This document shows positions 1,101-63,012 of a stretch of 64,000 nucleotides of DNA, one piece after another. Below the pieces are notes generated by a model. The model worked only from the letters and a program-made list of their open reading frames with translations. It had not been told where the DNA came from and did not search any database. Position numbers and translations under genes: made by a program. This DNA comes from Eledone cirrhosa (Eukaryota). The DNA lies in the NCBI GenBank assembly GCA_964016885.1, contig OZ024746.1, positions 85,498,001-85,562,000 on the forward strand, given 5' to 3'. Positions within the stretch are counted from its first letter, which is position 1. Each line of letters starts with the position of its first letter.

Positions 1101-1300
1101 TAGGAAAATGTTTAACCCCGACAGCAGAGCTCAAGCCATTTTGACGGCTATTTCTGGACTCAGTCCAGAAATAGCCGTCAAAACAGCTTGAGCTCTGCCG
1201 TCGGGGTTAAACATTTTCCTATTACCCACTCTACTACCCTAAGTATTGAGTACTCTGGTGCGTTAGGGTCCATCTGGTTCCTTACCACACTTCCTTCATT
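1101..1300 (+). mobile_element. Family-A short element (putative Penelope-like pLTR) with 5' fold-back palindrome
   Basis: Inverted repeat 1101-1221 centred on 1161, followed by a unique tail ending ccttaccacacttccttcatt-(TA)n. The same tail occurs at about 8425-8530 and 59380-59478. Confidence 0.65.
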
Positions 1301-1580
1301 ATATATATGTGTATATATATATGTATATACATTCTCGGTCCACATACCACAACAAAAATATATCTTTTGTCGCATCACCAGTCTGAGGAGCAGATCGACA
1401 CTGGAGTCCGGTCCATAACTCTTATGGGTCACTTTCAGCCAATCCTCTGTGAAACGAACGTGACAAGTCGATACGCAATAAATATTTTTCATATGTAAAA
1501 AAAACTTCCTTGTTTTTTTCTCTTATATGTCTACATGTATATATATATATATATATATACATATATATGTATGTATGTAT

Positions 1581-8032: not shown

Positions 8033-8424
8033 AGTGATTGGGAAATCTTTTCTGAATACTTGAGATTCAAAAATTTCCATCAAATTACATGGAAAACTAT
8101 AAATTTAAGAATAAGTGTAAGAATTTCATGCGTTCTTTTTATTTTTACTAATAAAATATCTAAGATGTATATATATATAGGAAAATGTTTAATCCGATGG
8201 CAGAGCTCAAGCCGTTTCAACGGCTATTTCTGAGTCCAGAAATAGTCGTCAAAACGGCTTGAGCTCTGCCGTTGGAGTTAAACATTTTCCTATATATATA
8301 TACATCTTAGATATTTTATTAGTAAAAATAAAAAGAACGCATGAAATTCTTACACTTATTCTTAAATTTATAGTTGATGGAAATTTCTGGATCTCAAGTT
8401 TTCAGAAAAGATTTCCCAATCACT
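8033..8424. repeat. ~390-bp compound palindrome with a family-A core
   Basis: Arms 8033-8232 and 8237-8424 are reverse complements with a few substitutions and one ~12-bp indel. The family-A tail resumes at 8425. Confidence 0.9.
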
Positions 8425-8530
8425 GAGCCGTCGGGGTTAAACATTTTCCTATTACCCACTCTACTACCCTAAGTATTGAGTACTCTGGCGCGTTATGGTC
8501 CATCTGGTTCCTTACCACACTTCCTTCGTT

Positions 8531-9160
8531 GATAGCTTCCAGTGATCAGATTAGCATGGGGGTGTTCTGAGGCCATAGTATTTAGAATGAGAACGGGTTG
8601 GAAAAAGTTTAGGGAACTTCTTCCTCTGTTGACTAAGAAGGATTTTTCCCTGCGTTCGGAAGGACGGTTATATAATGCCTGTGTGAGATGCGTGATGCTG
8701 CATGGTAGTGAGACATGGGCAGCAACTGCAGAAGATATGCGACGGCTGGAGAGAAATGAAGCAAGTATGCTCCATTGGATGTGCAATGCCAATGTGCGTG
8801 AATGACCAAGCATAGACGAGTTGAGAAAGAAACTGTGTATAAGAGGGATAAGTTGTGCTGTGCAGGAGAGAAGGCTGAGATGGTATGGACATGTGATGCA
8901 CATGGAGGATGACCGCTGGGTAAAGAAGTGCCAAGAAATCTCAGTAGAAGGAAGACAGTAGAGATAGACCATGAGCTAAACGAAAAGAGGTAGACGAAAA
9001 ACATGGGCAGAGGTGATGAGAGCAGACCTCAGATCTCTGAAACTCACTGAGGAGATGACGAAGGACCGTGACAAGTGGAGAGATGCTGTGCTGAATAGGA
9101 CCCGTCCAACCCTTGCAAGCAGGGAAAAGTGAACGTAAAATGATGATGATGATGATGATA
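8531..9160 (+). mobile_element. RTE LINE 3' end, decayed
   Basis: RMRTGWKKFRELLPLLT..GRLYNACVRCVMLHGSETWA, then RLRWYGHVMHM, ending in a (TGA)n tail. Confidence 0.9.
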
Positions 9161-25258: not shown

Positions 25259-25474
25259 CAAAAGGCAAACAAATTACAAAGCAAACGACACTGAAGAAAT
25301 ATATTATTAGTTTTACGCTTGATATAGTAGGAAAAGAGTCTTGAAGTTTCGGACGCTAGTCCTTCATCAGAAAATAGAATGAACAATTAAAGAAATAGAA
25401 AGATTGAGGAGACGGGCAGTGGCGGAGAGGAGAAGAAACAGGTCTATTCTCTTCGCTGTATATAGATAGGTATT

Positions 25475-51772: not shown

Positions 51773-51882
51773 TAAAATAAGTAAGTCAAACATGTAAAAT
51801 TTGGCTTCGTTTATTATAAATTCTCTGCACAGAATTTATAATAAACGAAGCCAAATTTTACATGTTTAACTTACTTATTTTA
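51773..51882. repeat. Hairpin with 52-bp arms and a 6-nt loop
   Basis: taaaataagtaagtcaaacatg...ttct CTGCAC agaa...catgtttaacttacttatttta, one mismatch. Confidence 0.92.
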
Positions 51883-59140: not shown

Positions 59141-59302
59141 GAAGTAGTTTAGTGATGCTATAAAAATTGCATTATCAATCTTAGTCAAAATCAATGTTGC
59201 ATATACAATTTATTTACAGTATGAGTTAGTAATTCAGGTAGTATTTTATTAGGTTATTATTTATTTATTATGTATATAAAAATGTCAAATTAATATTGTA
59301 TC

Positions 59303-59478
59303 GACCTCGACGGCTGAGCTCCGACCTTTTGACAGCTAGATCTAGCTGTCAAAACGGCCGGAGCTCAGCTGTCGGGGTCCTTACTCTTTTCCTATCACCC
59401 ACTCTACTACCTTAAGTATCGAGTACTCTGGTACGTTATGTATGGTCCACCTGGTTCCTTACCACACTTCCTTCATTA
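59303..59478 (+). mobile_element. Family-A element (diverged subfamily) with 5' fold-back
   Basis: Palindrome 59303-59379 centred at 59340/59341; tail homologous to 1222-1300. Confidence 0.65.
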
Positions 59479-59987
59479 TATATATATATAACCCATGCTA
59501 GCGTGGAAGAACGGACGTAAAACGGTGATGATGATGATGATGATGATATATATATAAAAAAATGTATATGTGTATCATCATCGGACATAAAGCAAGGATG
59601 ATGATATTGAGATACCTTTATCAGCTTATCTAACATTTCATCAATTTTTAATTTTTGCCTTCTACCTTCTTCAACTCTCCCCCTCTCTCACTCAAATTTT
59701 CTTTTTTTTTTATTCTCTAACTAGTTCTGTCATTTTTTCTCAACTCTGGTCTATCTCATTTAATTTGTCTATATATCTCTTACTCTTTCTCTCACCTCTA
59801 TCACTATTACCATTTACTTTTCATCAACTACAGCACCCCCACCCCCACCCCCACCCCCACCACCACCACAAGCAGTATTACCATCAGTACAATAGTATTT
59901 TACATCTATTTCATAACATGTGCAATCTCAACATTTACTCATTCTTCCATCTATTCCCAAATATACGTTTATATATGCAGAACCAGG

Positions 59988-61166: not shown

Positions 61167-62687
61167 CGAGCATATAATAATAATAACACTGAACATAATT
61201 CTGTGGCAACAGAAAGAATTGTTTTCTCCTCAAACTGCCAGACTGTACTTCGAACCTGTTGGATAGAATTGTGTACTCCTCAAATTGCAGAATTGCAGCC
61301 CACACATGGTCGTTGTGGACATTTATCTCATCTTTACCTTGACCCCAGCCTCTTGCAGAATTTCACTATTGAGTATGGTAGGGACCTTGTATAAATAATA
61401 TATTCAGTGGTTGACACACCACAGTCCCTTTCTGCATTTGGGATGCCACAATTTCAATTTTTAAGCCCTCTATTGTAACAACTATATATAAATACTTCCA
61501 GCCAATGAGATATCAGACGTAAGAACAAAATAAGTTTCAAAATTGGTTAAACATATAGAAAAAGAAAACAGCATTTATTCTCTACATTACTGATTCTCGT
61601 CCCTTCCTCTATCATTTACATTTTGCTTTGATGTATTTCACTATTTAACCCCTTATTGCTATGCAAAAGCATAAACTAAATTATCTCTATATAAAGCCCA
61701 TGTCACTTCTAAAATGCTATCTTTAAGATATGACCTCTTATATTACTTCTGACTCTAACATTATGTTAGTAAACTACAGCCCTTGAATGTCATTAAATAT
61801 GTGACATTGCAAAGGTTCTTTGTTTTCTCTATCAATCTTTGGTCAACCTCATGCTGTTATCTCATATTCTTATACTTCTAGTATTGTTTATTTTTGCTAT
61901 TCTAATTCATTCATTTGCATTATTTGGTTTCAAATTTCTGAACCTGCTGTGGCTTAGCAAAAGAAATCTTTTTTAAAGCAGTAGGAAATTTGGCTACTAT
62001 TTCTAGCAGGTAGAGTGACCACAGAGGCTTCCTTTTTTGCACATTACAGCAGAAGATTTAGGTTGGAGGTGGTGATTAATGTGGGGATAGAAGAAGTAGA
62101 CTCAGTATATGGCAGTGGTCTTTATTCTGTTCTGTTGGATCTGTAGTTCAAATTGTATTGTTACCAAGATTACTTTTCAGTTTTCCAGTTTCAGAAACTG
62201 TCAATAGCGTACTTGAAGATGTATATCGAATTTATGAGATTTTGATATCTATGTTAAGAACAATACCTTAACATCAGTATGAGTGGCCAGTTACAGCCGG
62301 TTAGAACAGAAAGAAGTGAGAGAATTCTGGCCGGATACGGCCGGTTTAAATGTTAGAGGTGTTAAGGAATTAAATAAAATATTGTTTACTGTAACTTTTG
62401 TCATTTTTGACGGGTACTATGCTAGTGTGTATATTTATATATATCATATGTATGTATATATTTATATATATCATATGTATGTATATATATATATATATAC
62501 ATGTATATATATATATATATAGAGGTAGATAAATATACACGGGTGTGTATGATTGTGTATAGAAGATTATATTAATAAGAGGAATTCCAACTTTGTCTGA
62601 TTTACTCGTTTTATTTACAATCCTTTAAAATTTATAATGGTATTATAATGAAATAGTATGATAGAATATTAAATGTTAAGTGTTAAT

Positions 62688-62726
62688 TGAACAAGTACTT
62701 TCATGCTTTCGCAATCTTCAGGTTCA
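62688..62726 (-). ncRNA. Mirror copy of the minimal hammerhead ribozyme
   Basis: Exact reverse complement of 62800-62838 in the left arm. Confidence 0.72.
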
Positions 62727-62799
62727 TAATATGTGGTGACAGTCAAGTTTGCAATTTTCAACTGTTGAAAATTGCAAACTTGACTGTCACCACACATTA

Positions 62800-62838
62800 T
62801 GAACCTGAAGATTGCGAAAGCATGAAAGTACTTGTTCA
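62800..62838 (+). ncRNA. Minimal type-I hammerhead ribozyme
   Basis: TGAAC [stem I] CTGAAGA t TGC gaaa GCA t [stem II] GAAA G ta C TT [minimal stem III, CUU site] GTTCA [stem I]. Confidence 0.72.
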
Positions 62839-62950
62839 ATTAACACTTAACATTTAATATTCTATCATACTATTTCATTATAATACCATTATAAATTTTA
62901 AAGGATTGTAAATAAAACGAGTAAATCAGACAAAGTTGGAATTCCTCTTA

Positions 62951-63012
<62 letters not shown>

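What the first reader, a model, noticed from the sequence alone, without database searches (positions are those of the whole stretch)
1101..1300. Family-A elements all fold back at the same point, possibly the ribozyme stem II
Seen: three copies (1101, about 8178, 59303) share a tail and each starts with a palindrome centred on a hairpin directly 5' of GTCAAAAC. One arm reads GTTGAAAC (reverse complement at about 8214-8221), so CpG decay of an ancestral GTCGAAAC explains both forms. Inference: the intact element read CTGAnGA-[long stem II]-GAAAC, and the cDNA snapped back on that stem and self-primed, replacing the CUGANGA box with an inverted copy. This would be a ribozyme-structure-directed way of generating genomic palindromes. 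The CUGANGA half is not visible in this window.
Basis: partly seen in the sequence, partly recalled or inferred. Interest (0 to 1): 0.75.

Follow-up and report, generated by a model that had tools for sequence, protein, structure and literature searches.

The report
Penelope palindromes centred on capped RNA start
These short mirror-image repeats are back-to-back stubs of a Penelope-type jumping gene, and they likely turn around where the element's capped RNA begins rather than at a ribozyme stem, which would show which RNA strand these poorly understood elements copy.

Summary
The palindromes are real, and the ancestral GTCGAAAC is confirmed. They are stubs of a 3-kb Hydra-type Penelope-like retroelement (RT plus GIY-YIG): a tail-less inverted copy joined head to head to a copy with a 77-nt tail, in (TA)n (1,088 exact tail-less junctions). 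The intact element has a predicted type I hammerhead, but its core is UUGANAA (U3-A8); CTGAnGA occurs in 9 of 6,722 motif matches. Snap-back on stem II is not supported: 0 of 89 arms keep the loop as it requires. Instead 62 of 81 short arms end at -7..+9 around one base inside loop II. Where both arms reach that base with one base between them, it is G/C in 46 of 50 loci listed, although all 44 intact templates have T: the mark expected of a copied cap. A sister family breaks mostly 5' of its catalytic core or at its start. Best reading: both nicked target strands prime on the RNA leader and run off its capped 5' end. No RNA data. The scan reached this reading before on other DNA of this genome.

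The parts
1101..1160 (-). Copy 1, tail-less inverted arm: element positions +1 to +60, outer end next to (TA)n-like flank
   Evidence: same fixed outer end at 1,088 genomic junctions
1161..1161 (.). Copy 1, single untemplated base between the arms (C on +, read as a G 5' of +1 on the left arm): predicted copy of the RNA cap
   Evidence: 46 of 50 listed loci of this junction type have C/G; all 44 intact templates of this subfamily have T
1162..1221 (+). Copy 1, direct arm: +1 in loop II, 3' strand of stem II, GAAA box (decayed), stem III with palindromic loop, GUC site (1200-1202), 3' strand of stem I
1222..1302 (+). Copy 1, 77-nt tail (the element's 5' leader between the two predicted RT start sites), ending in (TA)n
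   Evidence: tail continues into the ORF in L092, L053 and into the leader in L300, L021
8033..8177 (+). Host flank that is duplicated in inverted form after copy 2
8178..8292 (.). Copy 2 palindrome: two tail-less arms; left arm ends at +5/+6, right arm starts at +1 (8233)
8293..8424 (-). Inverted duplicate of the left host flank (with a 13-nt deletion): footprint of fold-back DNA synthesis
   Evidence: same architecture at L175
8427..8532 (+). Copy 2 tailed piece, starting at about +36
59302..59340 (-). Copy 3 left arm (sister subfamily, older, outer end eroded)
59341..59479 (+). Copy 3 direct arm and tail; centre on a GATC overlap at +7 to +10 of the sister subfamily
62516..63010 (.). In-window control: palindrome of an unrelated repeat in (TA)n, with a whole canonical hammerhead in each arm (core at 62805); its centre (62762-62764) lies about 40 nt 5' of the core, not in stem II
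   Evidence: family not followed further

Best explanation
The palindromes are short head-to-head insertion products of a Penelope-like retroelement with Hydra-clade protein motifs, likely made when both nicked strands of a (TA)n target prime reverse transcription on the RNA leader and both copies run off the RNA's predicted capped 5' end. Shown in sequence: the 3-kb parent, the two fixed 3' ends 77 nt apart, the pile-up of 5' ends at one base in loop II, the untemplated G there, the arm asymmetry. Inferred: that this base is the transcription start of a promoter inside the pLTR; that the extra G is the copied cap; that the two starts correspond to the two internal RT start sites seen in vitro for another PLE; that the two cDNA ends are joined by an RT template jump or by microhomology end joining, with occasional fold-back of one cDNA. 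Because transcription would start inside loop II, the 5' leader would carry only the 3' half of the hammerhead and could not cut itself; only read-through of the downstream pLTR would hold a whole ribozyme.
For: Parent element L092: starts at +5 after (TA)n, then tail, ORF, 3' pLTR. Ends in a sample not chosen by breakpoint: 62 of 81 short tail-less arms at -7..+9 (p about 8e-34 against uniform), 8 of 89 long; none of 73 tailed partner arms reaches beyond -7; the furthest reach is +1..+3 in 37 of 72 palindromes. Untemplated base: C/G in 44 of 50 listed of 601 loci and 46 of 50 listed of 149 loci in the subfamily whose 44 intact copies all have T at -1; untemplated G is taken as the mark of a cap for LINE-1 and SVA (PMC4859970 passages). 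Sister subfamily also starts at the A of an AGT word despite a changed loop. Family B with a different ribozyme position: 19 of 30 arms end 31-41 nt after the first T of a TATA word, at or before the core, which starts at 37. Family A has a TATA-like word 29-31 nt upstream in most intact copies. Both arms share the subfamily-variable segment in 35 of 38 pairs (some loci counted twice across sets). In vitro a PLE protein nicks both strands and starts at two internal RNA sites that bound the tail (PMC11167929); Penelope transcription starts inside the pLTR (PMC2377424 passages).
Against: No RNA 5' end was observed. An RT could add an untemplated C without a cap. The family A TATA-like word is weak and varies between subfamilies. 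In family B the largest bin is 37 (9 of 30), at the first base of the core, not 31 (5 of 30), which I attribute to subfamily mismatch with the reference but did not verify; 5 of 20 family B partner arms start at 50-52, inside that family's stem II region, and 7 of 30 left arms end at 63-72. End positions carry a few bases of uncertainty from microhomology (38 of 72 junctions). Window copy 2 and L175 need fold-back synthesis, so independent priming is not the only route. The samples come from the first places listed, mostly one contig.
Confidence: 0.8

Rival explanations
1. One reading: the cDNA snaps back on hammerhead stem II and self-primes, replacing the 5' half of the ribozyme with an inverted copy.
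For: Stem II is real in the predicted fold (9 bp, pair probabilities 0.90-1.0) and the centres lie 7 nt from it. In family B 5 of 20 partner arms start in the stem II region.
Against: 0 of 89 arms have the whole-loop form; loop bases +1..+7 occur on both arms; left arm longer by 20 nt or more in 11 of 72 after dropping two misaligned rows; the left arm stops at a fixed site before the tail; extra G at +1; family B and the 62516-63010 palindrome centre mostly upstream of the core.
Confidence: 0.04
2. One cDNA runs off the capped 5' end, folds back on a short microhomology at its own end, copies itself, and the new sense strand then anneals to or switches onto the second, tailed cDNA. Same fixed point, but the right arm is partly a DNA copy of the left.
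For: Window copy 2 and L175 duplicate 100-140 bp of host flank and then jump to a tail piece; microhomology at 38 of 72 junctions; self-priming is the published proposal for such palindromes (PMC3846280 passages).
Against: Only 1 of 70 testable loci shows flank duplication. Junctions with both arms complete to +1 and one unpaired base between (601 loci) offer no primer stem. Right arm longer by 5 nt or more in 15 of 72. Internal deletions seen in one arm were not mirrored in the other in the rows that show them.
Confidence: 0.12
3. The fixed end is an RNA end made by processing or an RT stall in loop II of read-through transcripts, not a transcription start.
For: The site lies in an unpaired loop next to a strong stem; no RNA data exclude it.
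Against: Does not explain the untemplated G or the similar spacing from a TATA-type word in two families whose ribozymes lie differently; ends at the ribozyme's own cut site (+42) are few (2 of 89 left arms, at the limit of the search word).
Confidence: 0.04

Closest known systems
Hydra clade of C-terminal EN+ Penelope-like elements (Craig et al. 2021, PMC8557442; passages, section 11, supplement search and part 2 read)
   Same: About 3 kb, RT then GIY-YIG, DKT, RWR, CxCX5C, CxxC and CxH motifs, (TA)n target, inverted 5'-truncated copy and tail, hammerhead in the pLTR.
   Different: All Hydra hammerheads listed in its File S2 have a C3-G8 core and short loop II; here U3-A8 or C3-A8 and a 32-nt loop II that holds the predicted start. 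Tail 77 nt against 30-40 nt.
PAc (Poseidon of Anolis carolinensis) in vitro (Frangieh et al. 2024, PMC11167929; parts 1-2 of 4 read)
   Same: Both target strands nicked and extended; two internal RT starts bound the tail; hammerhead cleavage not needed.
   Different: The parts read do not address how inverted copies form or where they meet.
PLE hammerheads, including the U3-A8 variant of Schistosoma Cercyon elements (Cervera and de la Pena 2014, PMC4209133; parts 1-2 of 4 read; also PMC3088659 passages)
   Same: Type I topology, U3-A8 core, long stem II with an unpaired base at its 5' end, short stem I, palindromic loop III.
   Different: Here stem III is a stable 5 bp, and about a fifth of listed copies have an uncompensated C3-A8.
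Penelope elements of Adineta vaga (Arkhipova et al. 2013, PMC3846280; passages read)
   Same: Head-to-head palindromes at the inverted junction, optional tail, TATA and Inr-like motifs in the pLTR.
   Different: That paper reads the palindromes as self-priming on an antisense template and leaves the strand open; the extra G on the sense strand here points to a capped sense template.
LINE-1 twin priming (as described in PMC4859970; passages read)
   Same: Second target strand primes internally on the RNA and gives an inverted 5' part.
   Different: In LINE-1 (recalled) the two cDNAs cover different parts; here they overlap fully and both start at fixed sites.

Membership tests
EN+ Penelope-like element | Single ORF with RT followed by GIY-YIG endonuclease | tested here: met
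   420-aa stop-free RT stretch with motif A and YxDD, downstream VIYQC and YIGLT in broken natural copies; read by motif, since Pfam and a protein search gave no hit
EN+ Penelope-like element | pLTR, partial tandems, inverted 5'-truncated copy, optional tail | tested here: met
Hydra clade | DKT, RWK-type, CxCX5C, CxxC and CxH motifs | tested here: met
   (RWR in place of RWK); definition
Hydra clade | (TA)n target and short length | tested here: met
   3.05 kb against 'generally under 3 kb'
Hydra clade | Canonical hammerhead readily detected | tested here: inconclusive
   A hammerhead fold is present but with a variant core
Hydra clade | Groups with Hydra RTs in a phylogeny | not tested
   No tree built
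Type I hammerhead ribozyme | Three stems around the core, G10.1-C11.1, GAAA box, NUH site | tested here: met
   Unconstrained fold of natural copy L037 gives the three-way junction; 97% of cells paired in 14 copies
Type I hammerhead ribozyme | Core CUGANGA or a compensated 3-8 pair | tested here: met
   U3-A8 in 76 of the 100 rows listed, C3-A8 in 22, U3-G8 in 2; position 7 takes all four bases; canonical form 9 of 6,722
Type I hammerhead ribozyme | Compensatory changes in the stems | tested here: inconclusive
   0 double changes in 16 pairs; most pairs never vary
Type I hammerhead ribozyme | Self-cleavage at the GUC | not testable with these tools
   Needs an in vitro assay
Non-LTR retrozyme | Non-coding tandem monomers each with a whole hammerhead | tested here: not met
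   Stubs lack the 5' half of the core; the parent is protein-coding; definition from bioRxiv 10.64898/2026.07.22.740005, part 1 of 5

The most novel reading that the evidence does not exclude
Every such palindrome is a genomic record of a Penelope-type transcript's capped 5' end: the element places its promoter inside hammerhead loop II so that the leader carries a half ribozyme that cannot cut, its RT copies that sense leader twice from two fixed starts, copies the cap, and jumps onto the partner cDNA's end. This would settle the sense-versus-antisense template question for EN+ Penelope elements and give a general rule for their inverted ends.
Probability: 0.55. Interest if true: 0.68.

Novelty: new member of a known kind. 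Interest (0 to 1): 0.5.

Why it matters
How Penelope-like elements form their inverted ends is stated as open in PMC8557442 and PMC11167929, and PMC3846280 proposed an antisense template. Thousands of young junctions here give a countable footprint: a fixed 5' end plus an untemplated G on the sense strand. That turns the question into a direct test (cap mapping; capped versus uncapped RNA in the existing in vitro system). It also warns that palindromes centred near a hammerhead are not evidence of ribozyme-guided fold-back. The element class, the inverted-plus-tail product and the U3-A8 core are all known.

Tried and rejected
Rfam scans of the window and of 7 loci gave no hammerhead match; uninformative, because the canonical-core family B copies in L003 and L007 were missed too; the microRNA hits are below gathering scores. 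Pfam on 3 ORF pieces gave nothing above cut-off; a search among longer proteins gave nothing at E 1e-20. Covariation count showed no double changes. A pattern for intact copies of the 59303 subfamily gave 2 loci, neither with the 5' half of the ribozyme, so that subfamily's core is unknown. MITE or DNA transposon rejected: ends are asymmetric (tail on one side) and the parent encodes an RT. A fixed consensus palindrome rejected: centres and arm lengths vary. The repeat finder on the whole window was swamped by microsatellites. Literature searches found no paper placing PLE palindrome centres at a capped start; only an open-licence library was searched and most hits were seen as listings only. 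Supplements of PMC11167929 and PMC4209133 were not read and may bear on this.

Full report
Observation. Copy 1 is a 60-nt inverted arm (1101-1160), one C, a direct arm (1162-1221) and a tail to about 1302. Copy 2 has two tail-less arms (8178-8292), then an inverted duplicate of the left host flank (8293-8424), then a tailed piece (8427-8532). Copy 3 (59302-59479) belongs to a sister subfamily. The window lies in a 3.0-Gb genome. Genomic copies mostly read GTCGAAAC, so the CpG-decay reading holds.

What the family is. A search with the direct arm and tail gave 1,161 first-look candidates, 40 scored, 30 fetched. Two of the 30 (L008, L023) continue upstream on the tailed arm. L023 leads into a broken ORF with GIY-YIG motifs. 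L092 is a near-full-length 3.05-kb copy: it starts at +5 after (TA)n, runs through the same half ribozyme and tail into a leader and an RT-endonuclease ORF, and ends in a full pLTR without tail. DKT, RWR, CxCX5C, CxxC and CxH motifs are present in natural copies, as defined for the Hydra clade in section 11 of PMC8557442. No tree was built, and Pfam gave no hit. The tail is therefore the element's 5' leader, as for the PLE studied in vitro in PMC11167929, where the tail lies between two internal RT start sites and both target strands are nicked and extended.

The ribozyme. Forty intact pLTRs in the loci then held read TTGAAAA (34), TTGAGAA (4) or a damaged form (2) between stem I and stem II. 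A genome-wide pattern gave 6,722 matches with 0 for the control; in the 100 rows listed position 7 takes all four bases, position 8 is A in 98, and position 3 is T in 78 and C in 22. The canonical CTGAnGA form gave 9 matches. An unconstrained fold of natural copy L037 gives the type I three-way junction with stems of 5, 9 and 5 bp. U3-A8 is a known natural variant, active in vitro (PMC3088659 passage) and reported in Schistosoma PLEs (PMC4209133). Stems show no compensatory changes in 14 copies, Rfam finds nothing, and cleavage is untested.

Where the arms end. To avoid choosing by breakpoint I searched for the outer junction of the tail-less arm: 1,088 exact matches, control 0. Of the 100 places listed I fetched the first 92 or so in 90 loci, giving 91 arms and 89 after dropping two duplicates. 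Numbering +1 at the A of TTAGT in loop II: 8 arms are long, 2 end at -60..-8 (one of them a false re-anchor that really ends near +1), 13 at -7..-1, 23 at +1..+3, 26 at +4..+9 and 17 at +10..+42. None of 73 partner arms passes -7. The furthest reach per palindrome is +1..+3 in 37 of 72. A tail-only search gave the same picture.

Test of stem II snap-back. It predicts one whole loop II between the stem strands, a left arm that is a subset of the right arm, and no fixed outer end short of the primer. Found: 0 of 89 whole-loop forms; left arm longer by 20 nt or more in 13 of 72 rows, 11 after dropping two misaligned rows (L142, L177); right arm longer by 5 nt or more in 15 of 72; a fixed outer end. 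The prediction fails.

Test of a capped 5' end. If both cDNAs run off a capped RNA, an untemplated G should stand 5' of +1, the mark used for LINE-1 and SVA (PMC4859970 passages). At 601 loci both arms end exactly at +1 with one base between; 44 of the 50 listed have C/G. Because 7 of 27 intact copies of one subfamily group have C at -1, I repeated the search for the window's own subfamily, whose 44 intact copies all have T: 46 of the 50 listed of 149 loci have C/G. Window copy 1 is such a junction. In the 3 oriented cases at hand the extra base sits on the tail-less arm. Cap-independent addition of C by the RT is not excluded.

Natural controls. The 59303 subfamily has a different loop sequence yet its arms also start at an AGT word at the same distance from the GAAA box. 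Family B, found beside L003, has a canonical core, 948 exact tail-less junctions and a TATA word upstream. Counting from its first T, 19 of 30 left arms end at 31-41, the core starts at 37 and the GAAA box at 56; 2 are long, 1 ends at 26, 1 at 52, 7 at 63-72; 5 of 20 partner arms start at 50-52. So most breaks lie at or before the core, but a minority fall in stem II, and the largest single bin is 37. In family A a TATA-like word lies 29-31 nt before +1 in most intact copies, though it varies; the -30 spacing and the initiator likeness of TTAGT are recalled knowledge, not from a call. Penelope of D. virilis starts transcription inside its pLTR (PMC2377424 passages). An unrelated palindrome in the window (62516-63010) has a whole canonical hammerhead in each arm and its centre about 40 nt upstream of the core.

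Mechanism. Inferred: a pLTR promoter starts a capped RNA at +1; the protein nicks both strands of (TA)n; one end primes at +60, the other at the end of the tail; both cDNAs run off the 5' end; they are joined by template jump or microhomology repair (microhomology 38, short inserts 20, longer inserts 10, blunt 4 of 72), with more erosion of the tailed arm. Both arms share the subfamily-variable segment in 35 of 38 pairs (not de-duplicated across sets), so they come from one source. Priming in the downstream pLTR of read-through RNA would give the long arms. Fold-back of one cDNA occurs as a minor route: window copy 2 and L175 (1 of 70 testable loci) copy 100-140 bp of host flank and then join a tail piece.

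Comparison and novelty. The inverted 5'-truncated copy with tail is a described PLE product (PMC8557442 passages). PMC3846280 reads the junction palindromes as self-priming on an antisense template and leaves the strand open; the extra G on the sense strand favours a capped sense template. Searches found no paper making this point, within an open-licence library. Earlier notes of this scan on other pieces of the same genome reached the run-off reading and the U3-A8 core; I had formed the reading before looking, and they are not independent support.

Verdict. Interest 0.5, for a countable footprint on an open mechanistic question.

Noticed in passing
window 62516-63010: 495-bp palindrome in (TA)n with 247-nt arms, a whole canonical hammerhead (core at 62805 and its mirror at 62715) in each arm and extra sequence on the left arm only; looks like another Penelope-type stub, centre about 40 nt upstream of the core.
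   Followed up: partly
window 25320-25375, minus strand: CTGATGA box, 4-bp stem II and GAAA box: possible minimal hammerhead.
   Followed up: no
window 51781-51876: AT-rich 96-nt hairpin with a 5-nt loop; best Rfam hit is a microRNA model below its gathering score.
   Followed up: no
G000 intact pLTRs, e.g. L279, L290, L306, L311, L314: Whole subfamilies (22 of 100 rows listed) carry an uncompensated C3-A8 core yet have spread, which fits transposition without ribozyme cleavage; unexplained.
   Followed up: partly
L316-L323: Eight of the 9 canonical-core copies read CTGAGGA, one A-to-G step from the C3-A8 subfamily core; sporadic rather than ancestral.
   Followed up: no
L003 1660-1852 and L214-L273: Family B, a second abundant PLE-type pLTR family with a canonical hammerhead and a promoter-like block similar to family A's loop II, but placed upstream of the ribozyme.
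   Followed up: partly
L241, L242, L218, L022, L084: A few arms end near the TATA-type word, about 25-30 nt upstream of the main end; cause unknown.
   Followed up: no
L191, L021; L134, L175: Palindromes with tail sequence on both arms, or on neither, exist as minorities.
   Followed up: partly
L003 1655-2140, L204, L298: Insertions of different PLE families sit stacked in one another's (TA)n flanks.
   Followed up: no
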